Assembly (NCBI GenBank): GCA_039931165.1
Contig: JBDTSL010000004.1
Location: forward strand, 21,028-85,027
Reading direction: 5' to 3'
Source of the DNA: Candidatus Doudnabacteria bacterium
GTDB lineage: Bacteria; Patescibacteriota; Doudnabacteria; UBA920; O2-02-FULL-48-8
DNA length: 64,000 nucleotides
The position numbers and the translations under genes were made by a program. Within the stretch, counting starts at the first letter, position 1, and each line of letters begins with the position of its first letter. Below the pieces are notes generated by a model, which worked only from the letters and a program-made list of their open reading frames with translations, made no database searches and was not told the origin of the DNA. Shown piece after piece: positions 1 to 43,831 of this stretch.

Positions 1-58
1 CAAACTTTTTGAAAAAAAGCAAAAATCTGTTAGAATTAGAAAGAATTAACGAATAGAA

Positions 59-655
59 ATGATACTTTCCGATAAAGACATAAAAAAAGCCCTATCAAGC
101 GGTCGGATCAAAATTACCCCGGCTCCTGACCTGAAAACCCAACTCGGTTCCTGCTCCGTCGATATGCATTTAGGCAATAAATTCCGAGTTTTTAAGCATT
201 CCAGTTACGCGTATATAGATCTTAAAGGCCCGGTTGATACGGATAAACTGATGAAAGAGATCGAGGTGCCGGACGGGGAGCCGTTTATTATGCAGCCAGG
301 GGATTTCGCTTTGGCCACGACTTCGGAAAATCTTGATCTGGCTGATGACCTTCTCGGCCGCATAGAGGGTCGAAGTTCTCTCGGACGTCTTGGTATCATA
401 GTCCACGGCACCGCTTCTATTTTTGACCCGGGCTGGATCGGCACTCCGACCATGGAACTGGGAAACCTCGGTGTCATGCCGGTAGCGCTTTATCCGGGAA
501 TGAGGATTTGCGCGTTTACTTTTGAAGAAGTCTCAAGCCCGGTTGAGGTTCCTTATAGACTGAAGAAAAATAATAAATATGCGGGCCAAAAAAGCCCGCT
601 GGCTTCGAAATTATCGGTTGAAGTCAGAAAGGAGCAAAAAAACCATGAAGGATAA
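59..655 (+). CDS. dcd: dCTP deaminase
   Basis: 198 aa. N-terminal MILSDKDIKKAL..GRIKI and overall length are typical of the Dcd/dUTPase-fold dCTP deaminase family. Confidence 0.8.
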   Translation: MILSDKDIKKALSSGRIKITPAPDLKTQLGSCSVDMHLGNKFRVFKHSSYAYIDLKGPVDTDKLMKEIEVPDGEPFIMQPGDFALATTSENLDLADDLLGRIEGRSSLGRLGIIVHGTASIFDPGWIGTPTMELGNLGVMPVALYPGMRICAFTFEEVSSPVEVPYRLKKNNKYAGQKSPLASKLSVEVRKEQKNHEG

Positions 656-1334
656 TTGGCACGATCCCGGATTTGCCTCGGATTGGGATAAGGATACCGA
701 AAGAGGCAATCCCGCCCGACTGATCCATCTAGAGCTGATCAAAAGAATAGTTATCGATAATTACAGACCCGAAAATACGATTTTGGACATTGGGGCCGGC
801 TCCGGACAAGTGGAGGCTTTGATCATGGAAGTATTGCCGCAAGCGAATATTGTGGCGGTGGATTCATCGGAAGTGATGAGCGTTTTGGCAAAACGGAGAT
901 TGGAAAATTATTTGGAAACCGTTAAATTCATAAAACACGATCTGAATCAAATAAACAAGCTGGTTTTACCGAAACATGATTATAAGATTGCTATTGCTTG
1001 CCAGGTATTGCACGAAGTGCCGGATAAAAAGAAAATAATCGAATATATTTTCAAAAAATTAAGCCATGGCGGGATATTCCTTTTAGCAGACAGGTTGAAG
1101 GTAGATTTGGATAAACTGGAGCCGATCTATAAAACCGTCTTTGACTGGAACGAGCACAAAGCTAAACTGAAATGGGAAAAAAGTTTTGAATTTTATCAGG
1201 AAAAAATCGCAACGAAAGACGACTTTGCTGTAACTTTGGACGAAAACCTCGGCATCTTAAGTGCAGCTGGTTTTGAAGCCGCCTGCATTCATTTGCAGCT
1301 CGACAGAGTATTGATCGGAGGAGTAAAAAAATAA
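645..1334 (+). CDS. class I SAM-dependent methyltransferase
   Basis: Motif I ILDIGAGSGQ is present. Start moved from 579 to the ATG at 645, which has AGGAGC 9 nt upstream and removes the overlap with dcd. The stop overlaps the tmk start (TAATG). Confidence 0.65.
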   Translation: MKDNWHDPGFASDWDKDTERGNPARLIHLELIKRIVIDNYRPENTILDIGAGSGQVEALIMEVLPQANIVAVDSSEVMSVLAKRRLENYLETVKFIKHDLNQINKLVLPKHDYKIAIACQVLHEVPDKKKIIEYIFKKLSHGGIFLLADRLKVDLDKLEPIYKTVFDWNEHKAKLKWEKSFEFYQEKIATKDDFAVTLDENLGILSAAGFEAACIHLQLDRVLIGGVKK

Positions 1335-2020
1335 TGGCCAAGGGTAAATTTATAGTTATTGACGGCACCGACGGGTCAGGCAAGACCACCCAAACCAAAA
1401 TTTTGATCAACCGCCTGCAAAAAATCGGCCATAAGGTCCACTTTGAAGACTTCCCCCAGTACGGCAAAAAGTCAGCCGGGCCGGTGGAAGATTACTTGAA
1501 CGGCGAATACGGCTCGGCGAAAAAATTAGGCGCATATATTCCATCGGTGTTTTTCGCGGTCGACCGGTTCACAGCGGCAAACCGCATAAGAACCCATTTG
1601 GCGCACGGAGACGTCGTGGTCTCCAACCGATACGTCACGGCCAATATGGCCCATCAGGGAGGAAAAATTGCCAATATCAGGCAGAGGGAAAAATTTTTTA
1701 AATGGCTGGCCGAATTTGAATATATATTTTTTAAGATTCCGAAGCCGGATCTGGAAATTATTCTGCATTTGCCGCCGAAAATTTCCGTCCAGCTTGTCAA
1801 ACAGCGCGGGCCACAGCACTACATCGGCTCAAAACATCTTGACCTTCATGAAAAAGATATAAATCACATGGTGCACGCCGAAAAAGTTTATCTGCATATC
1901 GCAAAAAAATTTCATTATAAATTGGTGGAAGGTTTCGTCGATGGCCGGCTGCTCACGCCCGAGGAAGTCAGCGATAAGATTTTTCCGATAGTAAAGAAAT
2001 ACCTCAATGGCAAATTATGA
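1334..2020 (+). CDS. tmk: thymidylate kinase
   Basis: P-loop FIVIDGTDGSGKTTQ at the N-terminus; length and fold match dTMP kinase. Confidence 0.9.
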   Translation: MAKGKFIVIDGTDGSGKTTQTKILINRLQKIGHKVHFEDFPQYGKKSAGPVEDYLNGEYGSAKKLGAYIPSVFFAVDRFTAANRIRTHLAHGDVVVSNRYVTANMAHQGGKIANIRQREKFFKWLAEFEYIFFKIPKPDLEIILHLPPKISVQLVKQRGPQHYIGSKHLDLHEKDINHMVHAEKVYLHIAKKFHYKLVEGFVDGRLLTPEEVSDKIFPIVKKYLNGKL

Positions 2021-2651
2021 AATAGAAATTAAAAGCCTTATCGGGGACAAGCGAAAAGCCGACGAGCTGGTGTCAAAAATGAAGTTAGCCGACCCGGGTT
2101 TAGTTTCGGTCGGAAAACACAAGCAGATGAATCATTACTTTGTTGGCGGGAATTTGGCCAAGTTAAAAGTTAGGCTGAACCTAGAACTGCCATTTCAAAA
2201 TCCAAAGGATGCTTCTGTGCGGACCCGCTGGGCAGACGGCCGGGTTATTCTTGTGATTAAGGCTACCGTTGACGACACTACATCGAGCAATGGCACCGCT
2301 AGGCAGGAGTTTGAGAAAGTAATGAATTTAACTTTAGAACAGTTAGACAAAGCCCTGCTGGATTGCGGTTTTGAATACCAAGCCAAATGGTCGCGCGAAC
2401 GCGAGGAATACCAATATAAAAATATGAACGTCAGCATAGATAAAAACGCCGGCTATGGATATTTAGTGGAATTCGAATCAGTTATTACCGATTTAAAGAT
2501 GGCGGAACAGACCAAAACTGACATTCGAGACAGAATGAAAGAATTAGCTGTCGAAGAATTGCCTCAAGATCGTTTGGAGCGCATGTTTGACTACTATAAC
2601 AAACACTGGCAGGATTACTACGGGACTGAAAAGGTTTTTAATATCGCGTAA
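2007..2651 (+). CDS. CYTH-domain protein (CyaB/thiamine-triphosphatase-like)
   Basis: Starts MANYEIEIK; the N-terminal EIExK signature is diagnostic of CYTH domains. Overlaps the tmk stop. Confidence 0.5.
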   Translation: MANYEIEIKSLIGDKRKADELVSKMKLADPGLVSVGKHKQMNHYFVGGNLAKLKVRLNLELPFQNPKDASVRTRWADGRVILVIKATVDDTTSSNGTARQEFEKVMNLTLEQLDKALLDCGFEYQAKWSREREEYQYKNMNVSIDKNAGYGYLVEFESVITDLKMAEQTKTDIRDRMKELAVEELPQDRLERMFDYYNKHWQDYYGTEKVFNIA

Positions 2652-2681
2652 TTACGTAATTAAATATGTAATTCAAGCCGG

Positions 2682-3677
2682 ATGGAAATAAAACACCCAG
2701 AATATCAATACCTTGATTTGCTCAAGGACATAATAGCTAACGGCTCTGATAAGCCGATCTTTTTTACGCCGGAGATCATCCAGCAGTACAAAGACAAGGG
2801 CGAACAGCCGCCGATCCTTCGTTCCGTTTTTGGCAGGCAAATGAGATTTAATCTGTCTGAAGGTTTTCCGCTTCTGACCACAAAAAAAGTTTTTACCCGC
2901 GGCTTGATCCACGAATTGCTTTGGTTCTTATCAGGAAGCTCGAACATTAAATATCTGGTCGACAATAATGTCCATATTTGGGACGATTGGGCCTGGAAAA
3001 GATATCACAAACTGGCGTTGGCCGGAGCGCATCCGGACATGAGACAGGATGAATTTATTACCAAGCTGAAAAGCGAGCCCAAGGAAGGCGAATTTGTAAA
3101 AAAATGGGGAGACCTGATCACGATTTACGGCAGGATGTGGCGCAAATGGCCGGCCTCGGACGGAAGAGAGATAGACCAGCTGGGCTGGGTCATCGAAGGT
3201 TTGAAATCCAAGCCATATCGCAAATCGTATGTGGTTTCGGCTTGGAACCCTGATTTTATTTATGCCATGGCATCGAAGGGCAACGCGAACGAGGTGCCTC
3301 CGTTCTGCCACACGACTTTTCAATTCGCGGTCGTCAATAATAAATTAAATCTTGGCTTGTACCAACGAAGCGGGGATTCGTTTCTAGGCGTGCCGTTCAA
3401 TATTGCCAGCTACTCACTTCTGCTACTCATGGTCTCTCAAGTGACCGGTATTGAGCCGGGAGAATTTGTGCATTTTTTTGGCGATGTCCATATTTATTCA
3501 AACCACTTTGATGCGGTAAAGACGCAATTGGCGCGCGAACCGAAAGCCTGGCCCAGGATGAAACTAAATCCCGAAAGAAAAAATATCGATGATTTTAAAT
3601 TTGAAGATTTCACTTTGGAAAATTACGACCCGCATCCCGCCATTAAAGCCGACATTGCGAATATCGGAGGATTCTAA
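2682..3677 (+). CDS. thyA: thymidylate synthase (ThyA type) with an approx. 35-aa insertion
   Basis: VPPFCHTTFQFAV matches the LPPCH active-site motif; GVPFNIASYSLLLLMVSQVTGIEPGEFVHFFGDVHIYSNH matches the ThyA C-terminal core. Confidence 0.9.
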   Translation: MEIKHPEYQYLDLLKDIIANGSDKPIFFTPEIIQQYKDKGEQPPILRSVFGRQMRFNLSEGFPLLTTKKVFTRGLIHELLWFLSGSSNIKYLVDNNVHIWDDWAWKRYHKLALAGAHPDMRQDEFITKLKSEPKEGEFVKKWGDLITIYGRMWRKWPASDGREIDQLGWVIEGLKSKPYRKSYVVSAWNPDFIYAMASKGNANEVPPFCHTTFQFAVVNNKLNLGLYQRSGDSFLGVPFNIASYSLLLLMVSQVTGIEPGEFVHFFGDVHIYSNHFDAVKTQLAREPKAWPRMKLNPERKNIDDFKFEDFTLENYDPHPAIKADIANIGGF

Positions 3678-4162
3678 TGACAATCTCTTTCGTTGCGGCA
3701 GTATCGGAAAACGGGGTCATCGGCAGCCATAATGCAATACCGTGGCTCATTCCTGAAGACCTCAAACATTTTAAAAAGATAACCATGGGCCATGTTTGCC
3801 TTATGGGCAAGCATACTTTTGACTCCATAATGAGTTCCCTGAAAAAGCCTTTGCCCGGAAGAACTAATGTGGTCATTACCCGACAAACTGATGTTATTTT
3901 TCCTGAAGGAGTAATAACTTACCATGATCTGGATGATGCGCTCAAAAATATCAAAACCGACGAACTTATGGTTATCGGCGGTGGACAGATCTACCAACAG
4001 CTGTATGATAAGGGTATGGTAGATAAACTCTATATGACCCATGTGCATAAACATATCGATGGTGATGTCATGTTTCCCAAAGTTGATTGGTCAAACTGGA
4101 ACGAAGTTTCACGCGAAGACCGCAAAGAATTTTCATTTGTAATCTATGAACGGAAGCAGTAA
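3677..4162 (+). CDS. folA: dihydrofolate reductase
   Basis: The N-terminus ISFVAAVSENGVIGSHNAIPW and a 161 aa length match DHFR; ORF overlaps the thyA stop. Confidence 0.85.
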   Translation: MTISFVAAVSENGVIGSHNAIPWLIPEDLKHFKKITMGHVCLMGKHTFDSIMSSLKKPLPGRTNVVITRQTDVIFPEGVITYHDLDDALKNIKTDELMVIGGGQIYQQLYDKGMVDKLYMTHVHKHIDGDVMFPKVDWSNWNEVSREDRKEFSFVIYERKQ

Positions 4163-4382
4163 CATCATATTTTTAAGTATTTTTGCAGCGGTTGTCTTAC
4201 TGTGCTTGCTTTATTTTGGACTTGAATTATTTCATATGAAGAATAAGCAGATAGAAAACTTGACTGGTATCAATCCATTCAATCCGACGGGAAAGTCCAA
4301 ATACATTATAATTGCTTGCTTTGTTCTAATGATTTTAGTATTAGCAGTCACTATCACTATTCTCTCAATACGAACTAGATGA
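4146..4382 (+). CDS. small membrane protein (hypothetical)
   Basis: 78 aa with two hydrophobic helices; overlaps the folA end and the HD gene start. Confidence 0.3.
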   Translation: MNGSSNIIFLSIFAAVVLLCLLYFGLELFHMKNKQIENLTGINPFNPTGKSKYIIIACFVLMILVLAVTITILSIRTR

Positions 4383-4966
4383 CAAATCGTGATATAGATT
4401 TTTTATACGAAATTGGTTCATTAAGAAATGTGCCGCGGGGTTGGCGGCAGCATCTGGGTTTTGATGTGGCGTCCGACCTTGAACATACTTATCGCCTGAT
4501 CTGGCTGGCTTTGATAATTTCCCGCATGGAAAAGAAAGGCGACGAGAACACGATCATAAAAATGGCCCTGGTCCATGATGTCGCCGAGACCAGGACATCT
4601 GACTTAAGCTATGTCCAAAAAGTTTACGTTAAAGCGGACGAGCATAAAGCCGCTGTTGACATGTTTGCCGGCACGATAGTCGAAAGTTTTCGGCAGATCA
4701 TCGAAGATTATGAAAAAAGGGATTCGATAGAATCAAAGATCGTGAAGGACGCGGATAACCTCGATATTGATCTGGAACTCAAAGAGATCGAAGAACTGGG
4801 ATCAAAACTCCCGTTGAAGTGGGCATCGAACAGGAAATTCGTCCGCGAGCAAAAATTATATACGGAATCTGCCAAGAGACTTTGGGACGAAATTCAAACA
4901 AGCGACCCTAATTCCTGGCATATGAAAATGAATAAATGGCTGACTGACCCTAACGCTGGAAAGTGA
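4379..4966 (+). CDS. HD-domain phosphohydrolase (YfbR-like 5'-deoxynucleotidase candidate)
   Basis: MALVHDVAETRTSDL contains the HD motif. Confidence 0.6.
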   Translation: MTNRDIDFLYEIGSLRNVPRGWRQHLGFDVASDLEHTYRLIWLALIISRMEKKGDENTIIKMALVHDVAETRTSDLSYVQKVYVKADEHKAAVDMFAGTIVESFRQIIEDYEKRDSIESKIVKDADNLDIDLELKEIEELGSKLPLKWASNRKFVREQKLYTESAKRLWDEIQTSDPNSWHMKMNKWLTDPNAGK

Positions 4967-5655
4967 TGAAAATTAAATTAGTTGCTTTTGATTGGAACGG
5001 AACGATTTTGGATGATATGCTCGGAGGTGTGATTGCAGAATCAGCAACTCGAGTACATTTTGGATTTAAGGAAACCAGTTTAGAGGAAATCCAAGAGCAT
5101 TTTGAAATACCAATAAAGAAATATTGGATCAATACTGGTCTATCTTCTGAATTTTTTGATACTCATTCGGCCGAAATAGATAAAATATTCATGCAGAACT
5201 ATGAACCAGAAGAAGCACGATCTGGGTTAAGATCAGGATCCAAAGAGATATTGGATTGGTTGAAAGGCGAAAAAATAGATTCAATTATATTCAGCAATCA
5301 TATCGTCCCGCACATTGTGAGACAAACGAAAAGATTGGGAATTAGGAATTACTTCAAAGAAATACTCGCCCGAGGAGCCTTAGGTGATCTGGTTCATCAC
5401 GAAAAAACTTTTAAAGATGAGTTGTTGAAACAGTACGTCGAAGCAGGTTTTTTTGCGCCGCACCAGGTTCTGGTGGTTGGTGATACGATTGAAGAAATAG
5501 AAATTAGTAAAAAATTCGGTTATACTTCAGTTGCCTTTACTGGCGGCTGGCAAAGTACCGCGAGATTAAAATCTGCAAACCCGGATTTTTTGATAAACAG
5601 TTTAGTTGATTTAAGATCAATAATCACCCGTCTTTCCGAGCAGGCCAGTGATTGA
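4963..5655 (+). CDS. HAD-family hydrolase
   Basis: N-terminal motif I VAFDWNGTILDD (DxDGT-like) and later GDT motif (VVGDTIEE). Confidence 0.65.
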   Translation: MMKIKLVAFDWNGTILDDMLGGVIAESATRVHFGFKETSLEEIQEHFEIPIKKYWINTGLSSEFFDTHSAEIDKIFMQNYEPEEARSGLRSGSKEILDWLKGEKIDSIIFSNHIVPHIVRQTKRLGIRNYFKEILARGALGDLVHHEKTFKDELLKQYVEAGFFAPHQVLVVGDTIEEIEISKKFGYTSVAFTGGWQSTARLKSANPDFLINSLVDLRSIITRLSEQASD

Positions 5656-5755: not shown

Positions 5756-6851
5756 ATGGAAGAACTCCTAAGACAAATTAAAACACTCAAAGACCAGGCT
5801 CATGATCTTAAGGAGCATCTTTGACCTGCCTCAAAAGAAACAAAAAATCCTAGAGATAGAAGAGGCGATGTCGGATCCGGTTTTTTGGTCCGACCAAAAT
5901 TCGGCCAAAGCCAAAGCCAAGCAGCTTTCGGACCTGAAAAAACATGTTGAAGGCTGGTTTAAGTTTGAGCAAGAACTACACGATTTAGAGGGTCTCACGG
6001 CAGAAGCGGCACTTGAGTCGGACAAGGTTTTGGAGTCTGAATTAAAGGCCAAATTTAAGCTCCTGGAGGCTCAATATGGGCAACTTAGCCTCACAACCTT
6101 CCTATCCGCGAAATACGACGACCATGACGCCATCTTATCGGTCCACGCGGGCGCCGGCGGGGTGGATGCCCAGGATTGGGCGGAAATGCTTTTGCGGATG
6201 TTTTTGCGTTTCGCGGAAAAAAATAATTTCAAAGCCAATGTCATAGACGAAAGCCGGGGAGGCGAAGCCGGGATCAAAAGCGTTGTCGTGGAAATTTCAG
6301 GACCATATGCTTATGGGTATTTTAAAAGCGAAGCCGGGGTGCACCGGCTGGTAAGGCAGTCGCCGTTCAATTCCACGCATACGCGCGAAACGTCATTTGC
6401 GCTGGTTGAGGTTTTACCGGCCATTGAGCAAGATGAGTTTAAACTGAATATGGATGAGATAGAAATAGAGGCCAAAACTTCCCGAGGGCATGGCGGACAG
6501 TCGGTGAACACAACCTATTCGGCTATCAGAGCCACTCATAGACCAACAGGACTTACCGTCACCATTCAAAACGAACGTTCGCAAACGCAAAACAAAGAAC
6601 AAGCGCTGAAAATTTTGACCAGCAAACTTGCTCAATTGGAGGAACAGCGCCAGCAGGAGGAAAAGCTGAAGATCCGAGGGGAATTCCATAGCGCCGAATG
6701 GGGCAATCAGATCCGTTCATACGTTTTGCATCCGTATAAGCTGGTCAAAGACCACCGGACGAATTACGAAACATCAGATGCGCAATCCGTGCTCGAAGGA
6801 AATCTGGATGAATTCGTGAAGCAATATCTGGAAAAAAACCGGATGAAGTAG
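5756..6851 (+). CDS. prfB: peptide chain release factor 2, with programmed +1 ribosomal frameshift
   Basis: SPF tripeptide (RF2-specific) and GGQ motif (SRGHGGQSVN). Frame-0 ORF ATG 5756 to CTT-TGA at 5819-5824, with an AAGGAG SD-like element just upstream of CTT TGA C; the body continues in the +1 frame to 6851. Confidence 0.85.
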
Positions 6852-29384: not shown

Positions 29385-31109
29385 CTAAGGCGCGTTGAGT
29401 ATCGGGTCCGGCACCAGCCACTGGCAGCTGGTCTTGTCTTTTTTTATCCGCGAAATGTCCAGCTGTATGTCCGCTTGATGACTATCTATTAAAGATCGGA
29501 CAATACTTTGGATTTGCGCTGAAGTAAAGCTGCTCAAATCAAACTCTACCATTGAATAATCCGTCAGCTCGAATCTGTGGGTTTCGACATCAGGAGAAGG
29601 CGCAGTTTTGTTGATGACAAAAAACATTCTGGAATATTTTTGCTTGATAGCGTTTGGGTCAAACCCGAAATTCATTTCCAACAAAGTTTTCGATTCCGTG
29701 CCGGTCAGGAATAGCGGGTAGTACCTAAACCAGCAGTCGCTGTCAGAGACTCTGACGATGATCAGGTCATTCGTGGTTAAACCCAAAGCACGCATTTCTT
29801 CGGCTGTCCGATAAAATTTCTCGTGTTCGGATTGATAAATATAAGCTTGCGCGCGGCGAGATTTAAAAGCCTGGTCAAATCTCACGGATTCGTAGCCAGT
29901 AACCAATAAAGCGATCGATAAGGCTAGAACATATATGTAGCGGAAGTCTTCAGACTTCCATAATTTTCGAAACCTAAACGTTTCCGCTACTTGGCGCACA
30001 CAAATTGTCAGGGCGTATAAAATAAAAAACAAGCTCAGCAAATAACTTTGATAAATGAAATTCGGCACTTTCGATGTGACCAAGGAAATAGCCAAGAGGT
30101 TCCAGACAAACCAGCCGCCGGACAAACCAAGCAGTATTTTATCTTTCCTCTCACCTTTATACTTTATGCTTAATACTATTCCAAGCGTTATCCCTGCATA
30201 ATATACCCATGTCCAACGAAAAAGATATCTTTGCGGCAAATAGTCGGACAGATACCAATGCCAGGGCCTGGCCCATCCCTCCAGCTGCCTGAAATGGGTA
30301 AAAGAAACAAATATTTCACTTTTAAACGTCTGAGGGGAACTGAAGAATAAAGGCAGAAGACAAACCAGAAGCAAAAAAAGAAAAAACAGAACGGATGCCG
30401 ACACTTTTTTGTTTATTGTTCGGTGATCCCAAATAAGCAAGCCAAAAAAAGTTGCGGCCGGTATCGCGCCCAGCAAATTTTTCGCCATGACCGGCAAAGC
30501 CACGACCAAACCGATAAGAGCAAACTTCCAAATAGGATAGTTTAATCGCAGCTCTTGATCTTTTTCCAAATACCAAAGATTGGCTAAGAATCCAAACACA
30601 ACCGTAAAAGCCAAAACAATATCGGAAGCGCCAAAGGCGTAACCTGAGATCAGTTCATGGGTGAAAGGAGTGTTCAGCCAGAAGATCGCGGCTATTGTAG
30701 CAGCGAGTGCGGCCGATAAATTTTGACGGAATCTATAAATACCGCAAATAAACAGTAAACCTGCCGGACAAAGGACAAAGGCATATGACAGCCTTTTGAC
30801 CTCAATACTGACCTGGCCGTCGAGATTAAAAAATAGATATGGCACATAAGCAAAAAGTGGCGGGATATGCTGCCAGTAAGGCCCCTCCATCCAATTCCCC
30901 TCCTGATCTACGAGCGGATTGACGCGAACCATAGGCGGAAAAAGTTTCCTCGTCAGGTTCGCTGCCACCACGGAATTCGACGATTCGTCATGCGCCAGAA
31001 GGTCTTTTTTGAATATCCAAGGAAAATCCGATTTTGTATTGAACAAAAACAAAGTCGTGAAGATCAGGCAGAGTATGGCAACAATAATTTGATTCTGATA
31101 TTTTCTCAT
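29385..31109 (-). CDS. polytopic membrane protein, probable GT-C fold glycosyltransferase (PMT/ArnT-like)
   Basis: 574 aa, at least 10 TM helices, DE dipeptide in the first extracytoplasmic loop (LLAHDESSN), and a C-terminal soluble domain. Confidence 0.4.
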   Translation of the reverse strand: MRKYQNQIIVAILCLIFTTLFLFNTKSDFPWIFKKDLLAHDESSNSVVAANLTRKLFPPMVRVNPLVDQEGNWMEGPYWQHIPPLFAYVPYLFFNLDGQVSIEVKRLSYAFVLCPAGLLFICGIYRFRQNLSAALAATIAAIFWLNTPFTHELISGYAFGASDIVLAFTVVFGFLANLWYLEKDQELRLNYPIWKFALIGLVVALPVMAKNLLGAIPAATFFGLLIWDHRTINKKVSASVLFFLFLLLVCLLPLFFSSPQTFKSEIFVSFTHFRQLEGWARPWHWYLSDYLPQRYLFRWTWVYYAGITLGIVLSIKYKGERKDKILLGLSGGWFVWNLLAISLVTSKVPNFIYQSYLLSLFFILYALTICVRQVAETFRFRKLWKSEDFRYIYVLALSIALLVTGYESVRFDQAFKSRRAQAYIYQSEHEKFYRTAEEMRALGLTTNDLIIVRVSDSDCWFRYYPLFLTGTESKTLLEMNFGFDPNAIKQKYSRMFFVINKTAPSPDVETHRFELTDYSMVEFDLSSFTSAQIQSIVRSLIDSHQADIQLDISRIKKDKTSCQWLVPDPILNAP

Positions 31110-38233: not shown

Positions 38234-40231
38234 ATGCTTACAGAATCTTCGATATTTGGCCTGTCGATCTTTGCCGGCCTTGCCGCGATCGCCTACGGAT
38301 TGATCCTTACATACTGGGTTCTGCAAAAACCGGACGGAGATAAAAAAATGCAGGAAATCGCCTCCGCCATCCAGGAAGGCGCGACCGCCTATCTGACCCG
38401 CCAATACTCGACCGTGGCCGTGGTCGCCGTCATTCTGGCCGTGCTGATCTGGAAAATTTTGGGTGTGCACTCGGCGCTTGGATTCGTGCTGGGAGCTGTG
38501 GCTTCGGCAGGTGCCGGATTTACTGGGATGTTCGTAGCTGTGCGCGCCAATGTCCGGACTGCCCAAGCGGCCAGATCGGGGCTGAAAGAAGCTTTCTCGC
38601 TGGCTTTCAATGGAGGCGCAGTCACCGGATTGTTTGTGGTCGGTTTAGGTCTTTTGTCGGTCTCATTATTTTATCATTTTACGAATGATCTTAATTCCCT
38701 TGTCGGATTGGCGTTCGGAGCCAGCTTAATTTCGGTATTCGCCAGGCTTGGCGGCGGAATTTTCACAAAAGGCGCCGATGTCGGAGCTGACTTGGTAGGA
38801 AAAATAGAAGCCGGCATCCCCGAGGATGATCCTCGGAATCCGGCAGTGATCGCGGACAACGTCGGAGACAACGTCGGAGACGACGCCGGCATGGCCGCTG
38901 ACTTATTCGAAACCTATGCCGTGACCACGATCGCCGCCATGCTTTTGGGAAACATTATTTATAAAGACAACTCTCTTTTCATTCTCTACCCGTTGGCTCT
39001 CGGCTCGGTTGCGGTATTTGCGTCGATCATCGGCACTTTTTTCGTGCGCTTGGTGAACAAACAAATCATGACCGCACTTTACAAAGGCTTGATCGTTTCA
39101 GCAATTTTGTCCGCTATCGGGTTTTATTGGGTGACGAAAAGCCTGTTTATCCCTTTTTTCGGCGTCGGCTTATTTTACTCCTCTTTGGTAGGATTGGGCG
39201 TGACAGCCGCCATGGTCATTATCACCGAATACTACACCTCAAAAAAATTTAAACCAGTCCAATCTATCGCCCAGGCCTCAACCACCGGGCACGGGACGAA
39301 TATCATTACCGGGCTTGCCGTATCAATGCAGGCAACCGCGCTTCCGGTGCTGACAATCATTGCTGGCATTTTGCTTTCATATCACTTTGCGGAAATCTAT
39401 GGCACTGCCATTGCCACGGTTTCGATGTTGTCCATGGCAGGGATCATCGTGGCCATCGACGCTTTTGGTCCCATCACGGACAACGCCGGAGGCATTGCCG
39501 AAATGGCCGGGCTTCCGGATTCAGTACGGCAGTCAACCGATGCGCTGGATGCGGTTGGCAACACAACGAAAGCGGTAACCAAAGGATATGCCATAGCATC
39601 CGCCGGACTTGCCGCTGTGGTGTTATTTGCCTCATACACCCATGAACTTGCCGGCTTGGGCAGGAACCTGACCTTTGATCTGTCGGACACAAAGGTGCTG
39701 GCCGGGTTGCTTATTGGCGCTGCCCTTCCATATCTGTTCGCTTCCATGGCCATGCAGGCTGTTGGCAAGGCCGGACATGCCGTAGTGGAAGAAGTCCGGA
39801 GGCAGTTCAAAGAAATTCCGGGAATTATGGCTGGCACCGCTAAACCGGATTATGCGCGGGCTGTGGATATCGTGACCAAAGCTGCCATTAGAGAAATGGT
39901 TTTACCGGCACTGCTTCCGGTCGTGGTTCCGATTCTGGTTGGTATAATCCCGTTTCTGGGCGCCAAAGCCTTGGGCGGAGTTTTAGTCGGCTCGATCATC
40001 ACGGGCTTGTTTGTAGCCATTTCCATGACTTCGGGCGGAGCGGCCTGGGATAACGCCAAAAAATTCATCGAAGAAGGCCACTATGGCGGCAAAAAATCCT
40101 TGGCCCACCAGGCCGCAGTGACCGGCGACACGGTCGGCGATCCTTATAAAGACACAGCGGGTCCCGCCATAAATCCAATGATAAAAATAATTAATATCGT
40201 AGCGCTGCTGATCATCAGTTTTCTCGCCTAG
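38234..40231 (+). CDS. hppA: membrane-bound proton/sodium-translocating pyrophosphatase (V-type H+-PPase)
   Basis: 665 aa, about 15 TM helices. [45 protein letters not shown] is the PPase signature. Confidence 0.9.
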
Positions 40232-41992: not shown

Positions 41993-43831
41993 TCAATCGA
42001 ATTGGATTTTATCGCCGGGTTTGAGCGTTCCCTGCTTTTGTTCCGGTTCGGCGGGTTTGGTTTCTTCGGTTTTGATTACCGGGGGCGCCGGTTGAATCCG
42101 CGGCTGCTGTTCGGGTACTTGCTTTTTTGAAGCATCTTTACCGAGCGAAAGTGCCAGAGAACTGCTTAAATCCTCCAGAGCCGAAGTGGCTTTCCCAACT
42201 CTCTCGGTAATCTTTTCCGCCGCCAGCTTATTCACAGTTTCCCAAACCGGGTTTTGCGCGGGTTTTTTATCCGCCATTCTTCTGCCCGAATTATTTTCCG
42301 ACTGCTGTGCCGGCCTCCGTTCGGGTCTCCTGGTTTCCTGTCTGCGCGGCTGTTCAGACTGGCTGATCCTGGGGGCAGAAGGCACCGGCCTTTCAGAACG
42401 AGTAGCCGGAGCCGGAAGCGCTTGGTTGACTTGGACAGGAGGAGAAATAACCGCCGGACGGTCCTGGTAGCGTAAACTTTCTTGCAGCTCTTCTTGCTCA
42501 ACAGCGCCGCTCTCTGACGCAGCGGCTTGAGCGTGAAATTCCGAACCCATCCACTTGTTGATCTTCTCTTCCACTCCTTCCCGTTTGTTCGCATAGCGTT
42601 CCCTGGAAATACTGACAACTTTTTCTTCGTTGCCGGTGATCTCCGCGATTGGCGGCAGAGTTGTCGCAGAAAAAGGTGTCGATGAAACTCCGTTGATCAT
42701 CAGCTTCAAATAAACGTGATATTTGGTCAGATTGACCAGATCGTTCAGCAGATACGTCGGGTCGAATTCCTTTTCCAAAAATTCGGCGTCGTCAGCCCCG
42801 GTGCGGAAGCAAATCAATGTTCCGACGTTGCCGAAGATCGCATCCCTGACAACAGTATTTTTTTTATCCGTGACCAGCTGGCCGATGTACTGATGGGCCA
42901 CGATCAAATTCAGCCGGTATTTCCGGGCTTCGGACAGAATGTTTGCGAAAGATTCGGTGGCAAAGTTCTGGAACTCGTCCACATACAGATAAAAATCCTC
43001 CCGTTCTTCCTCAGGAATATCCACGCGGCTCATGGCCGCAAGCTGTAGCTTGGTAATGATCATGGCGCCCAGCAAAGCCGAATTGTCCTCGCCGATCCTG
43101 CCTTTCGACAGGTTGATCAGGAAAATTTTCTTGTTATCCATGATCTCCCGCAGATCAATGGAGCTTTTCGTTTGGCCCACAATGTTGCGGATAATGGCGG
43201 ATGATAAAAATTGCCCGACCTTGTTTTGAATAGGCGCGATGGCCTCGTTTCGGAATTTGTCGTTGTAATTGGCGAACTCATCCACCCAAAACGATTTGAC
43301 CACGGGATCTTTGATATTATCCACAATCCTTTTCCGATAGGTTTTGTTGACCAGCATCCGAGCGATTCCGAGCAAAGTATTGCCTGGCGAATCAAGCAGG
43401 GCCAGAATCGTGTTGTTCAGAATATACTCCATTCGCGCCGACCAGACTCCGGCCCAGATCTTCGTGAACACGCCCATCAGTCCTGATGCCACCAAATGTT
43501 TATATTTCGGGTCTACTGATTCCAAAGGGTTAAAAGCAATGGGAAAATCGCTGTCCGCGGGATTCAGATAGACTACGTCATTAACCCGGTTGGACGGGAT
43601 GTAGTTGAGGATCTTTTCCACGGAGTCGCCATGCGGATCTACAAAAGCAACCCCATGCCCATCCTGAATGTCCTGGATGACCATATTTTCGATGAGGGTG
43701 GTTTTGCCCATCCCGGTTTTGCCGATGATATACATGTGGCGCCTGCGGTCATCCCGGCGGATACCGAAAGACACATCCCGGTTCCGGAAATTGGTTTTTG
43801 CGAACAGTGTTATGTCATTATCAGAGGCCAT
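41993..43831 (-). CDS. FtsK/HerA-superfamily P-loop ATPase, TraD/VirD4 (type IV coupling protein)-like, lacking an N-terminal TM domain and carrying a Q/P/R/E-rich disordered C-terminal tail
   Basis: Walker A IIGKTGMGKTTL, DPHGD, Walker B FYLYVDEFQNF, and RKYRLNLIVAHQYIGQL (TraG/TrwB-like R..Q..QL region). The last approx. 170 aa are low complexity. Confidence 0.5.
   Translation of the reverse strand: MASDNDITLFAKTNFRNRDVSFGIRRDDRRRHMYIIGKTGMGKTTLIENMVIQDIQDGHGVAFVDPHGDSVEKILNYIPSNRVNDVVYLNPADSDFPIAFNPLESVDPKYKHLVASGLMGVFTKIWAGVWSARMEYILNNTILALLDSPGNTLLGIARMLVNKTYRKRIVDNIKDPVVKSFWVDEFANYNDKFRNEAIAPIQNKVGQFLSSAIIRNIVGQTKSSIDLREIMDNKKIFLINLSKGRIGEDNSALLGAMIITKLQLAAMSRVDIPEEEREDFYLYVDEFQNFATESFANILSEARKYRLNLIVAHQYIGQLVTDKKNTVVRDAIFGNVGTLICFRTGADDAEFLEKEFDPTYLLNDLVNLTKYHVYLKLMINGVSSTPFSATTLPPIAEITGNEEKVVSISRERYANKREGVEEKINKWMGSEFHAQAAASESGAVEQEELQESLRYQDRPAVISPPVQVNQALPAPATRSERPVPSAPRISQSEQPRRQETRRPERRPAQQSENNSGRRMADKKPAQNPVWETVNKLAAEKITERVGKATSALEDLSSSLALSLGKDASKKQVPEQQPRIQPAPPVIKTEETKPAEPEQKQGTLKPGDKIQFD

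What the first reader, a model, noticed from the sequence alone, without database searches (positions are those of the whole stretch)
59..5655. Thymidylate supra-operon with embedded non-canonical enzymes
dcd, tmk, thyA and folA form a complete dCTP to dUMP to dTMP to dTDP route in one co-directional, overlapping string. Four extra genes are interleaved: a class I SAM methyltransferase, a CYTH (triphosphate tunnel) protein, an HD-domain YfbR-like 5'-deoxynucleotidase candidate and a HAD hydrolase, plus a tiny membrane protein. Tight coupling (TAATG and 4 to 14-nt overlaps) argues for co-expression. CYTH, HD and HAD enzymes all act on (deoxy)nucleotide phosphates, so this may be a dNTP pool homeostasis/sanitation module. 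The SAM methyltransferase inside a dTMP operon is unexpected. ThyA also carries an approx. 35-aa insertion after the IWDDWA motif.
Basis: partly seen in the sequence, partly recalled or inferred. Interest (0 to 1): 0.5.

Follow-up and report, generated by a model that had tools for sequence, protein, structure and literature searches.

The report
Thymidylate operon with a conserved tunnel triphosphatase
This is a real thymidine-nucleotide synthesis operon of a tiny uncultured bacterium (Candidatus Doudnabacteria). Its surprise is not the methyltransferase but a triphosphate-tunnel (CYTH) enzyme that sits beside thymidylate synthase across this bacterial group, in the position other members give to a dUTPase-like protein, so it may be an unrecognised way of making dUMP.

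Summary
All nine ORFs at 59-5655 exist, carry the domains named, and are packed as described (overlaps of 1-17 nt, one 30-nt gap). The window comes from a Candidatus Doudnabacteria MAG.

Comparison with about 160 related loci splits the "extra" genes into three classes.
- **CYTH gene:** core. In 80 species-level genomes it lies next to thyA (73), folA (75) and dcd (70), in at least 7 gene orders, and a phage contig also carries CYTH-thyA-folA.
- **tmk, HD and HAD:** recurrent but lineage-restricted accessories (28, 24 and 9 of 80). They sit among other variable nucleotide hydrolases (NUDIX, HIT, deoxyribosyltransferase-like).
- **Methyltransferase and 78-aa membrane ORF:** sporadic insertions. 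The methyltransferase recurs in one related lineage (L001-L003) and resembles BelI/CysG small-molecule O-methyltransferases.

In thyA-anchored loci, CYTH and a Dcd/Dut-superfamily paralogue never co-occur: 16 loci have CYTH only, 32 the paralogue only, 0 both. The two occupy the same positions.

This is inferred, not shown.

The ThyA insertion is the known Lactobacillus casei-type small domain. This ThyA subfamily also has an unusual C-terminal extension and altered phosphate-binding arginines.

The parts
9..36 (+). Promoter-like site (TTGAAA-16 nt-TAGAAT, TG-extended) 22 nt upstream of dcd. Weak evidence only.
   Evidence: The number of such sites in the region is not above the shuffle expectation.
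59..655 (+). dcd, dCTP deaminase (dCTP to dUTP). Mono- versus bifunctionality is unresolved.
   Evidence: TIGR02274 193.8 bits, above cutoff. The catalytic Ser/Arg/Glu motifs GRSSLGRLG and MELGN are present. PDB similarity is equal to E. coli (monofunctional) and M. tuberculosis (bifunctional) enzymes. It is 92% identical in L001.
645..1334 (+). Class I SAM methyltransferase of the BelI/CysG/MM_2633-like small-molecule type. A sporadic insertion, probably a passenger.
   Evidence: Pfam and NCBIfam hits are generic, with nothing above an equivalog cutoff. Only 16 homologues turned up in 5.8 billion proteins. Profile A2 hits BelI/CysG at E 4e-27. The His-His-Asp metal motif aligns as H123-E124-D193. 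The gene is absent from the other loci surveyed, apart from L001-L003.
1334..2020 (+). Tmk-family kinase (dTMP to dTDP inferred), a divergent paralogue.
   Evidence: PF02223 63.5 bits. TIGR00041 scores 71.1, below the 83.25 cutoff. The best PDB hit is M. tuberculosis TMPK, matched over the full length. It is present in 28 of 80 CYTH loci. In L125, L129 and L133 it sits in tandem with a second Tmk-family gene (query tmk2, whose L090 copy scores 148 bits against TIGR00041).
2007..2651 (+). CYTH / triphosphate tunnel metalloenzyme and conserved partner of thyA. Candidate pyrimidine dNTP (dUTP/dCTP) hydrolase.
2682..3677 (+). thyA, thymidylate synthase. It belongs to a Patescibacteria subfamily with an L. 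casei-type insert, a pre-Cys insertion, an N-terminal loop insertion and a 4-aa C-terminal extension (IGGF).
   Evidence: TIGR03284 354 bits and NF002496 342.5 bits against a cutoff of 325. In the AF2 model, mean pLDDT is under 50 for residues 328-331 and 52-60 for the three 10-residue blocks spanning 181-210, which hold the pre-Cys insertion.
3677..4162 (+). folA, dihydrofolate reductase, translationally coupled to thyA (TAATG). Its Shine-Dalgarno GGAGGA is encoded by the ThyA C-terminal extension.
   Evidence: PF00186 173 bits. It is linked to CYTH in 75 of 80 loci.
4146..4382 (+). 78-aa ORF with two hydrophobic segments. It is lineage-specific and of uncertain reality.
   Evidence: Only sub-threshold family hits: Pfam Claudin_3 16.9 bits against a cutoff of 28.7, and NCBIfam 15.7 bits against 50. 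It has no counterpart in any related locus. It is a singleton cluster, called only in a Logan assembly and not in the NCBI annotation.
4379..4966 (+). HD-domain phosphohydrolase of the HD_3 family (YfbR/HDDC2/OxsA-like). Accessory (deoxy)nucleotide phosphohydrolase.
   Evidence: PF13023 76.2 bits and PF12917 28.2 bits; NCBIfam YfbR equivalog 19.3 against a cutoff of 122. PDB hits are the oxetanocin-like protein 1xx7, HDDC2 and YGK1. The H...HD...D motif is conserved. It is present in 24 of 80 loci and is 90% identical in L001.
4963..5655 (+). HAD-superfamily hydrolase with an atypical motif I (FDWNGT). Substrate unknown.
   Evidence: PF13419 52.3 bits; all NCBIfam hits are far below their cutoffs. 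It has no PDB relative at E 1e-6. Motif I is Asp-x-Asn in 10 of the 11 family members listed; the 11th ORF (L036) is over-extended and its motif is not shown. It is present in 9 of 80 loci.

Best explanation
The region is the pyrimidine deoxynucleotide (thymidylate) operon of a Candidatus Doudnabacteria genome, wedged between the rplKA and prfB-ftsEX-rplI housekeeping genes.

**Steps assigned by family membership**
- Dcd deaminates dCTP to dUTP.
- ThyA methylates dUMP to dTMP with methylene-tetrahydrofolate.
- FolA recycles the dihydrofolate.
- The Tmk-family kinase phosphorylates dTMP.

**Inferred step**
The CYTH (triphosphate tunnel metalloenzyme) protein directly upstream of thyA is a catalytically competent triphosphate hydrolase. 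I infer that it converts dUTP, and possibly dCTP, to the monophosphate. That would feed ThyA and keep dUTP out of DNA. It would be a fold-unrelated replacement for the Dut-like protein that holds the same operon position in other Patescibacteria.

**Other genes**
- HD and HAD are variable accessory hydrolases. They belong to a floating set (with NUDIX, HIT, deoxyribosyltransferase-like proteins and extra kinases) that trims or cleans deoxynucleotide pools.
- The methyltransferase and the small membrane ORF are lineage-specific insertions with no demonstrated link to the pathway.

**Sub-confidences**
- Thymidylate operon: about 0.95.
- CYTH is an integral, catalytically active pathway component: about 0.8.
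- Its reaction is dUTP/dCTP to dNMP: about 0.4.
For: **Family assignments.**

**Synteny with a relative.** L001 carries dcd-MT-CYTH-thyA-folA-HD-HAD-prfB-ftsE-ftsX-rplI.

**CYTH-anchored survey of GTDB species genomes.**
- 372 species encode the family.
- In the best 80 loci, thyA is adjacent in 73, folA in 75 and dcd in 70. At least 7 different orders and orientations occur.
- CYTH is followed on the same strand by thyA (37 loci) or dcd (18 loci), with a median gap of 10 nt.

**CYTH looks catalytically active.** The catalytic motifs are invariant and the fold is a genuine tunnel fold.

**thyA-anchored survey of 82 loci.**
- CYTH only in 16, Dut-like only in 32, both in 0.
- Restricted to loci with at least 2.5 kb on both flanks: 8 / 20 / 0, with 3 having neither. 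Fisher p = 2e-5.
- No Dut-like ORF occurs in any CYTH-anchored locus; all 73 Dcd-superfamily ORFs there score better with the Dcd profile.

**The swap occurs in two architectures.**
- dcd-tmk-X-thyA.
- dCMP-deaminase-(X)-thyA-folA-(X).
- On a ThyA tree the two states interleave, needing at least 7 changes among 58 taxa.

**Supporting observations.**
- Dcd co-occurs with the Dut-like gene in 8 loci (L090, L103, L104, L108, L121, L125, L133, L164). This suggests these Dcd enzymes need a separate triphosphate-hydrolysing partner.
- A phage contig carries CYTH-thyA-folA.
- No dut lies in the 64-kb window.
- Iyer et al. 2021 (PMC7824862) independently speculated that phage CYTH triphosphatases play a dUTPase-like role.
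Against: - Two CYTH loci (L019, L026) also carry a canonical dut right after thyA, so the two are not strictly exclusive.
- The Dut-like paralogue lacks the canonical dUTPase motif-3 Asp, which is Gln, Ala, Pro or His in the variants seen. The motif-4 Gln is His instead. Its own activity is therefore unproven, and the shared 'slot' could stand for something other than dUTP hydrolysis.
- From my own knowledge, characterised tunnel enzymes mostly remove the gamma-phosphate (tripolyphosphate, thiamine triphosphate, RNA 5' ends) or cyclise ATP. None is known to be dUTP-specific.
- Dcd could be bifunctional (dUMP-forming), which would make a dUTPase unnecessary. Sequence similarity does not decide this.
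- I could not scan whole genomes for dut.
- The exclusivity statistic is not corrected for phylogeny, and thyA itself appears to be exchanged horizontally.
Confidence: 0.5

Rival explanations
1. The CYTH protein is a general inorganic tripolyphosphate/pyrophosphate or non-specific NTP phosphohydrolase, like NeuTTM, CthTTM or YgiF. It is merely co-transcribed with thyA. The Dcd enzymes here are bifunctional and make dUMP themselves.
Against: A housekeeping triphosphatase would not be expected to stay glued to thyA through at least 7 rearrangements. It would not be expected to travel with thyA-folA in a phage, or to be mutually exclusive with a Dut-like gene in the same slot. Orthologous Dcd genes (about 60% identical) co-occur with a separate Dut-like gene.
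Confidence: 0.25
2. The CYTH protein and the Dut-like paralogue are alternative non-hydrolytic or regulatory nucleotide-binding partners. Examples would be a dTTP/dUTP sensor, a nucleotide cyclase, or a ThyA-associated subunit. They would not be dUMP-producing enzymes.
For: The Dut-like paralogue lacks both the deaminase Glu and the dUTPase Asp. The closest solved folds include class IV adenylate cyclase. The ThyA subfamily has a remodelled C-terminus and phosphate site that might accommodate a partner.
Against: Every catalytic tunnel residue is invariant across the CYTH family, which argues for an enzyme. The cyaB equivalog score is below its cutoff, 34.6 against 57.95. The ThyA extension is also present in ThyA proteins linked to the Dut-like gene, so it is not CYTH-specific. 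No regulator-type domain is present.
Confidence: 0.12
3. The cluster is a DNA-base hypermodification pathway. The ThyA homologue would act as a hydroxymethylase, or on a non-dUMP substrate, and the methyltransferase, kinase and hydrolases would process the modified nucleotide.
For: The ThyA subfamily is atypical: the arginines equivalent to R126' and R127' are replaced, there is a C-terminal extension, and insertions flank the catalytic Cys. A methyltransferase and kinases lie nearby.
Against: - FolA in 75 of 80 loci, and in many loci GlyA, accompany ThyA. That fits dihydrofolate production, the hallmark of true thymidylate synthase.
- N177, which selects uracil, and all catalytic residues are conserved.
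- ThyA is about 50% identical to E. coli ThyA and scores above the equivalog cutoffs.
- The methyltransferase is absent from nearly all related clusters and resembles carboxyl O-methyltransferases.
Confidence: 0.03

Closest known systems
E. coli-type de novo dTMP route (Dcd, Dut, ThyA, FolA, Tmk) and thyA-folA operons, including phage T4 frd-td (from established knowledge)
   Same: The chemistry and most of the enzymes are the same. thyA and folA are adjacent and translationally coupled, and dcd and a Tmk-family kinase lie in the same string.
   Different: No canonical Dut is present. A CYTH tunnel enzyme sits between the kinase and thyA. Variable HD, HAD, NUDIX, HIT and deoxyribosyltransferase-like genes are interleaved.
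CYTH / triphosphate tunnel metalloenzymes (CyaB and Yersinia class IV adenylate cyclase, thiamine triphosphatase, YgiF, NeuTTM, CthTTM, PH1012/PH1819)
   Different: - It is below the cyaB equivalog cutoff.
- It has a family-specific conserved loop (VDDTTSSNGTAR) and an aromatic-rich C-terminal tail (QDRLxRMFDYYNxNWQDYYGT).
- Its genomic context, thymidylate synthesis, is not reported for any characterised member.
dUTPases: trimeric all-beta Dut, archaeal Dcd-like Dut (P. furiosus, PDB 9ln0), and phage T4 gp56 dCTPase/dUTPase (functional analogues)
   Same: The CYTH gene occupies the operon slot next to thyA that a Dcd/Dut-superfamily paralogue occupies in other Patescibacteria. The two are mutually exclusive.
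   Different: The fold is unrelated, so this is not a family member. The activity is untested. The replaced paralogue is itself atypical, with its motif-3 Asp changed to Gln, Ala, Pro or His and its motif-4 Gln changed to His.
Long-form thymidylate synthases (Lactobacillus casei, Enterococcus faecalis, Staphylococcus aureus)
   Same: The insertion after the IWDxW motif lies at the same place. The proteins align in one stretch, residues 47-326 against 29-315 of 316.
   Different: - The insert is about 15 residues shorter than in L. casei.
- There is an extra insertion of about 8 aa before the catalytic Cys, and one of about 12 aa in the Arg21 loop.
- SRR becomes RKS.
- There is a 4-aa C-terminal extension, whereas 124 of the 141 closest 50%-identity cluster representatives whose alignment reaches the C-terminal region end exactly at the canonical residue.
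BelI/CysG metal-dependent carboxyl O-methyltransferases and MM_2633 (PDB 9fce, 9fcd, 3dtn; PMC11408123)
   Same: They are the best solved relatives of the methyltransferase family (profile E 4e-27). The His-His-Asp metal-binding positions align.
   Different: The window protein has Glu at the second His position. There is no biosynthetic cluster context, the substrate is unknown, and only 16 homologues were found.
YfbR / HDDC2 / OxsA HD-domain (deoxy)nucleotide phosphohydrolases
   Same: It belongs to the HD_3 family, with conserved H...HD...D metal ligands. The closest structures are the oxetanocin-like protein 1xx7, HDDC2 and YGK1.
   Different: It is far below the YfbR equivalog cutoff, 19.3 against 122. 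Whether it acts on mono-, di- or triphosphates cannot be told.

Membership tests
Thymidylate synthase ThyA (EC 2.1.1.45) | Profile score above curated equivalog cutoffs | tested here: met
   TIGR03284 354.4 bits (cutoff 108.35), NF002496 342.5 (cutoff 325), PF00303 318.8.
Thymidylate synthase ThyA (EC 2.1.1.45) | Catalytic Cys-His plus E58, W80, Y94, Q165, R166, S167, D169, N177, H207 and Y209 (E. coli numbering) | tested here: met
   All are conserved in the window protein (C209, H210, N240 and so on). C146, H147, Q165, R166, D169 and N177 are invariant in all 70 related sequences, and the other six are conserved in 66-69 of 70.
Thymidylate synthase ThyA (EC 2.1.1.45) | Four-arginine dUMP phosphate site (R21, R126', R127', R166) | tested here: not met
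   Only R166 is kept in register. SRR becomes RKS in the window type and AHN in the sister type. The R21 loop carries a 12-14-aa insertion with Lys at the aligned position. From my own knowledge, single substitutions of the three non-essential arginines are tolerated in L. casei TS.
Thymidylate synthase ThyA (EC 2.1.1.45) | C-terminus ends at the canonical residue, whose carboxylate closes the active site | tested here: not met
   There are four extra residues (IGGF), and relatives have up to 25. In every solved-TS row whose alignment reaches query position 326, the chain ends one residue later. 124 of the 141 closest cluster representatives that align to the C-terminal region end at the canonical position.
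Thymidylate synthase ThyA (EC 2.1.1.45) | Produces dihydrofolate (functional coupling to DHFR) | tested here: met
   This is indirect evidence. folA is adjacent in the window and in 75 of 80 loci, and glyA is in the cluster in 25 of 80. Enzymatic proof is not available.
CYTH / triphosphate tunnel metalloenzyme | N-terminal ExExK motif and paired basic/acidic tunnel residues | tested here: met
   E5, E7, K9, R72, K85, E101, E103, R130, R132, D145, K146, E155 and E157 are invariant in 23 sequences; R74 is conserved in at least 90%.
CYTH / triphosphate tunnel metalloenzyme | Eight-stranded antiparallel beta-barrel tunnel fold | tested here: met
Class IV adenylate cyclase (CyaB) | Score above the TIGR00318 equivalog cutoff | tested here: not met
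   34.6 bits against a cutoff of 57.95.
dUTPase (trimeric Dut / Dcd-like Dut) | Homology to the dUTPase superfamily (five Dut motifs) | tested here: not met
   The CYTH protein has no dUTPase-family hit and its fold is unrelated. The claim is 'may work like', not 'is a member'.
dUTPase (trimeric Dut / Dcd-like Dut) | dUTP to dUMP + PPi activity | not testable with these tools
   It is inferred only from operon position and mutual exclusivity with a Dut-like paralogue.
dCTP deaminase (Dcd) | Equivalog score and catalytic Ser/Arg/Glu | tested here: met
   TIGR02274 193.8 bits. The GRSSLGRLG and MELGN motifs are present. The Glu motif is present in all 60 Dcd-cluster ORFs of related loci.
Bifunctional dCTP deaminase-dUTPase | dUMP-forming activity, or sequence determinants of it | tested here: inconclusive
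   PDB similarity is equal to E. coli (153.8 bits) and M. tuberculosis (148.9 bits) enzymes. I know of no reliable sequence discriminator.
dTMP kinase (Tmk) | Equivalog cutoffs | tested here: not met
   TIGR00041 71.1 against a cutoff of 83.25, and NF005923 107.4 against 193. Family level is met: PF02223 63.5 bits, and all 30 PDB hits are thymidylate kinases.
YfbR-type 5'-deoxynucleotidase | Equivalog cutoff and HD metal ligands | tested here: inconclusive
   PF12917 28.2 bits is just above its cutoff of 25.9. NCBIfam NF003009 gives 19.3 against a cutoff of 122. The H...HD...D ligands are present.
HAD phosphatase | Motif I DxDx(T/V), with the second Asp as general acid/base | tested here: not met
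   Motif I is F-D-W-N-G-T (Asn at position +2) in 10 of the 11 family members listed; the 11th ORF is over-extended. The fold-level assignment holds: PF13419 52.3 bits.
BelI/CysG-type metal-dependent O-methyltransferase | His-His-Asp metal-binding motif on a class I Rossmann fold | tested here: inconclusive
   Family profile E is 4e-27 to BelI. H123 and D193 are invariant. The second position is His in most homologues but Glu in the window protein. The motif is defined in PMC11408123.

The most novel reading that the evidence does not exclude
This CYTH family would be a previously unrecognised, fold-independent class of pyrimidine deoxynucleoside-triphosphate diphosphatase, that is, a dUTPase or dCTPase. 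It would have displaced the Dut-superfamily enzyme in the thymidylate operons of a large part of the Patescibacteria (at least 372 species-level genomes) and in some of their phages. It would work alongside a thymidylate synthase subfamily whose C-terminal closure mechanism has been rebuilt.
Probability: 0.4. Interest if true: 0.75.

Novelty: new variant of a known kind. Interest (0 to 1): 0.6.

Why it matters
dUTP hydrolysis both feeds thymidylate synthase and keeps uracil out of DNA. Yet many prokaryotic genomes lack any recognisable dUTPase ("Life without dUTPase", PMC5122711).

If this tunnel enzyme does that job, it would fill such a gap for a major uncultured bacterial radiation. It would add a new fold to the short list of dUTPase solutions. 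It would also give the large, mostly uncharacterised CYTH superfamily a concrete housekeeping role.

The prediction can be tested directly with one recombinant protein and a dut complementation assay.

Separately, a thymidylate synthase clade with an extended C-terminus and only one of the four phosphate-binding arginines kept in register challenges textbook structure-function rules for a heavily studied drug target.

Tried and rejected
- **Methyltransferase as a nucleotide or nucleic-acid modifier tied to dTMP synthesis:** rejected. It is absent from related clusters, and its closest solved relatives are small-molecule carboxyl O-methyltransferases.
- **Hypermodification pathway or ThyA acting as a hydroxymethylase:** rejected on FolA/GlyA linkage and conserved N177.
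- **ThyA insertion as a novelty:** rejected. It is the known L. casei-type insert.
- **Deciding Dcd mono- versus bifunctionality from PDB similarity:** inconclusive.
- **Rfam scan of the window:** only one tRNA, with no riboswitch or leader near the operon.
- **Promoter and terminator scan:** counts are no better than shuffles. Only a plausible promoter lies upstream of dcd, and there is no convincing terminator after HAD.
- **PHROGs:** no phage family matches the CYTH protein.
- **AF2 model of ThyA:** the C-terminal extension and the pre-Cys insertion are low-confidence, so there is no structural insight.
- **Literature searches for a CYTH link to thymidylate synthase, dUTPase or CPR bacteria:** nothing beyond a speculative sentence on jumbo phages.

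Full report
**Observation**

Pfam and NCBIfam confirm the following:
- dCTP deaminase: TIGR02274 193.8 bits.
- A class I SAM methyltransferase.
- A Tmk-family kinase: PF02223 63.5 bits. It is below both NCBIfam dTMP-kinase cutoffs, although every PDB relative is a thymidylate kinase.
- A CYTH protein.
- ThyA: TIGR03284 354 bits.
- DHFR.
- An HD_3/YfbR-like protein.
- A HAD hydrolase.

The methyltransferase starts at 645 (MKDNW), not at the first ATG of the ORF. This matches the NCBI protein and all homologues. The gene junctions are -11, -1, -14, +30, -1, -17, -4 and -4 nt.

The window derives from a 91-kb contig of a Candidatus Doudnabacteria MAG. Downstream lie prfB, ftsE, ftsX, rplI and pyrG. 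prfB carries its canonical CTT TGA C +1 frameshift site.

**Conservation of the string**

A related Doudnabacteria lineage (L001-L003) carries rplK-rplA-dcd-MT-CYTH-thyA-folA-HD-HAD-prfB-ftsE-ftsX-rplI. It lacks tmk and the small ORF.

Protein identities between the two genomes are uneven:

| Protein | Identity |
|---|---|
| Dcd | 92% |
| HD | 90% |
| FtsE | 92% |
| RF2 | 87% |
| CYTH | 68% |
| FolA | 66% |
| HAD | 55% |
| ThyA | 50% |
| MT | 45% |

The low ThyA value reflects two ThyA subtypes that replace one another at the same locus. The window type is 81-82% identical in six other CYTH-anchored loci, and 76-88% identical in more than 120 database clusters.

**The methyltransferase**

Only 16 homologues exist in the 5.8-billion-protein collection. 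Those outside Doudnabacteria sit in unrelated contexts: a MAG labelled Stellaceae, and contigs where the gene lies just upstream of polA. No other thymidylate cluster of the roughly 160 surveyed contains the gene.

A profile of the family hits BelI/CysG at E 4e-27. These are the metal-dependent 3-isopropylmalate carboxyl O-methyltransferases of beta-lactone biosynthesis. The next hits are MM_2633 and CmoA. The His-His-Asp metal motif described for BelI/CysG (PMC11408123) aligns with H123-(E/H)124-D193.

It is therefore a small-molecule-type methyltransferase and a sporadic insertion.

**The CYTH gene is the conserved partner**

A scan of one genome per GTDB species found 372 species encoding it. 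The best 80 loci carry labels including Doudna-, Kaiser-, Adler-, Colwell-, Taylor-, Davies- and Moranii-bacteria, Paceibacterota and Minisyncoccia.

Within 8 kb of the CYTH gene, the counts among these 80 loci are:

| Gene | Loci (of 80) |
|---|---|
| folA | 75 |
| thyA | 73 |
| dcd | 70 |
| tmk | 28 |
| HD | 24 |
| HAD | 9 |
| MT | 0 |

At least seven orders and orientations occur:
- dcd-tmk-CYTH-thyA-folA
- folA<-CYTH-dcd-thyA-glyA
- dcd-CYTH-thyA-folA<
- folA-dcd-CYTH-thyA
- CYTH-dcd-thyA-folA
- CYTH-thyA-folA-dcd<
- folA<-tmk<-CYTH-thyA-dut-dcd<

CYTH is followed directly by thyA (37 loci) or dcd (18 loci), with a median gap of 10 nt.

Other recurrent neighbours are glyA and folD. Further neighbours are an AAA_17/18 kinase, Nuc_deoxyrib_tr-like, NUDIX and HIT proteins, and an F420-ligase-like protein.

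A phage contig (L089) carries CYTH-thyA-folA, and its ThyA is of the same subfamily.

**What fills the same slot elsewhere**

Window-type ThyA genes in other Patescibacteria lack CYTH. Instead they show dcd-tmk-[179-aa Dcd/Dut-superfamily protein]-thyA-...-folA-glyA, or dCMP-deaminase-thyA-folA-[the same protein].

That paralogue scores below the Dcd cutoff. It matches the archaeal dUTPase model PRK02253 over its full length (72 bits) and lacks the deaminase Glu.

A thyA-anchored metagenome scan (80 loci) plus two earlier loci gave the following:

| Loci considered | CYTH only | Dut-like only | Both | Neither |
|---|---|---|---|---|
| All 82 | 16 | 32 | 0 | 34 (mostly short contigs) |
| At least 2.5 kb on both flanks | 8 | 20 | 0 | 3 |

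For the second row, Fisher p = 2e-5, uncorrected for phylogeny.

Profile searches found no Dut-like ORF in any CYTH-anchored locus. The swap occurs in both the dcd-based and the dCMP-deaminase-based architectures (L144 and L145 have CYTH). On a ThyA tree the two states interleave, needing at least 7 changes in 58 taxa.

**Interpretation**

The only chemical step missing from the minimal conserved set (Dcd, ThyA, FolA, GlyA) is triphosphate-to-monophosphate conversion. The only unassigned conserved gene is a triphosphate-hydrolase fold. It alternates with a Dut-superfamily protein.

The most economical reading is that the CYTH enzyme hydrolyses dUTP to the monophosphate. In the dCMP-deaminase clusters the substrate may be dCTP.

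This is inference. The caveats are:
- L019 and L026 have both CYTH and a canonical dut.
- The Dut-like paralogue has Gln, Ala, Pro or His instead of the catalytic motif-3 Asp. It has an invariant His at the motif-4 Gln position. This may be a compensating swap, but it is unproven.
- Dcd bifunctionality cannot be excluded.
- Whole genomes could not be checked for dut. None lies in the 64-kb window.

No paper in the searchable library links CYTH proteins to thymidylate synthesis or to CPR bacteria. Iyer et al. 2021 speculate that CYTH triphosphatases of jumbo phages could act like dUTPases.

**ThyA**

The insertion of about 35 aa is the known small-domain insert of long-form TS. The protein aligns in one stretch with L. 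casei, E. faecalis and S. aureus enzymes.

Less ordinary features are shared by every ThyA in these loci except the divergent L047 homologue, whether CYTH- or Dut-like-linked:
- A 7-8-aa insertion before the catalytic Cys.
- A C-terminal extension of 4-25 aa, nearly always carrying a Gly-Gly motif.
- Replacement of the arginines equivalent to R126' and R127'.
- In the window type, a 12-14-aa insertion in the Arg21 loop.

All catalytic residues, including N177, are conserved. Among the 141 closest 50%-identity cluster representatives that align to the C-terminal region, 124 end exactly at the canonical residue. Only 8 carry the GG[FY] extension.

In the window the extension (ATC GGA GGA TTC) also encodes the folA ribosome-binding site. 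The AlphaFold model is uninformative there.

FolA/GlyA linkage argues that the enzyme is a true thymidylate synthase.

**Accessories**

- The HD protein belongs to the YfbR/HDDC2/OxsA family, with intact metal ligands.
- The HAD family has Asp-x-Asn in motif I, which is atypical for phosphatases.
- The 78-aa ORF is a singleton absent from the NCBI annotation.

**Verdict**

But the emphasis was misplaced.
- The methyltransferase is a passenger.
- The ThyA insert is known.
- The overlooked point is the CYTH enzyme as a candidate analogue of dUTPase.

This makes it a new variant of a known pathway, of moderate-to-high interest and cheaply testable.

Noticed in passing
window 2682-3677, and ThyA genes of L001-L171: A Patescibacteria ThyA subfamily has three unusual features: a C-terminal extension with a GG[FYLI] motif, a 7-8-aa insertion before the catalytic Cys, and loss of the arginines equivalent to R126' and R127' (plus W83Y in one subtype). 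The elements that normally close the active site appear to have changed together.
   Followed up: partly
window 2682-3677 versus L001 9426-10364, L009, L010: Two ThyA subtypes replace one another at the same locus. One has PPFCH...ANIGGF and the other PICHNMYQ...SGGF. The closest relatives (Dcd 92-93% identical) carry the other subtype, only about 50% identical, which implies gene replacement by recombination.
   Followed up: partly
window 645-1334 versus L001 8001-8690: The methyltransferase at the same operon position is only 45% identical between two genomes whose flanking Dcd is 92% identical. That is about as distant as homologues from a MAG labelled Stellaceae (40%). Either it evolves very fast or it was acquired or replaced independently at a hotspot between dcd and CYTH.
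   Followed up: partly
L090 5329-5868; L091 4065-4613; 30 further loci among L103-L170: A Dcd/Dut-superfamily paralogue next to thyA lacks the deaminase Glu. Its dUTPase motif-3 Asp is replaced by Gln, Ala, Pro or His, while the motif-4 Gln position is an invariant His. It keeps a conserved C-terminal YRGQWQGGR. It may be a dUTPase with a rearranged catalytic pair, and it is uncharacterised.
   Followed up: partly
L089 5920-8500 (IMGVR_UViG_3300034197_000017, 83.7 kb): A viral contig carries the CYTH-thyA-folA triad, with the same ThyA subfamily features (C-terminus ...TTVGGY).
   Followed up: partly
L056 2026-3474: There is an in-frame Dcd-ThyA fusion ORF of 482+ aa that runs off the contig end. 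It sits directly after CYTH in a CPR MAG, and could be a real fusion or a read-through or assembly artefact.
   Followed up: partly
window 4963-5655, and 10 related HAD genes: HAD motif I is FDWNGT (Asp-x-Asn) in 10 of the 11 members listed, instead of the phosphatase DxD. It resembles the DWAGT of phosphonatase-type HADs. The substrate class is unclear.
   Followed up: partly
window 4146-4382: This 78-aa ORF with two hydrophobic segments fills the folA-HD gap and overlaps both neighbours. It is a singleton in the 15-billion-protein collection and is not annotated by NCBI.
   Followed up: partly
window 1334-2020; L125, L129, L133: The window's Tmk-family kinase is a divergent paralogue, below the NCBIfam cutoffs. 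In some genomes it sits in tandem with a second Tmk-family gene (query tmk2). It may therefore have a different dNMP specificity.
   Followed up: partly
window 5757-6851: prfB has the canonical programmed +1 frameshift site, CTT TGA C at about 5818-5824, preceded by the Shine-Dalgarno-like AAGGAG.
   Followed up: yes
L010 5962-6693 and 5 other loci (cluster c27): An F420-0:gamma-glutamyl ligase-like (CofE-like) gene recurs beside dcd or folA in these clusters. It could be a folate polyglutamylation analogue.
   Followed up: no
window 38234-40231; 41993-43831; 29385-31109: Three other features of the window: a membrane H+-pyrophosphatase (878 bits), a type IV secretion coupling-protein-like ATPase, and a 574-aa ORF with no Pfam hit at E <= 1e-5.
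   Followed up: no
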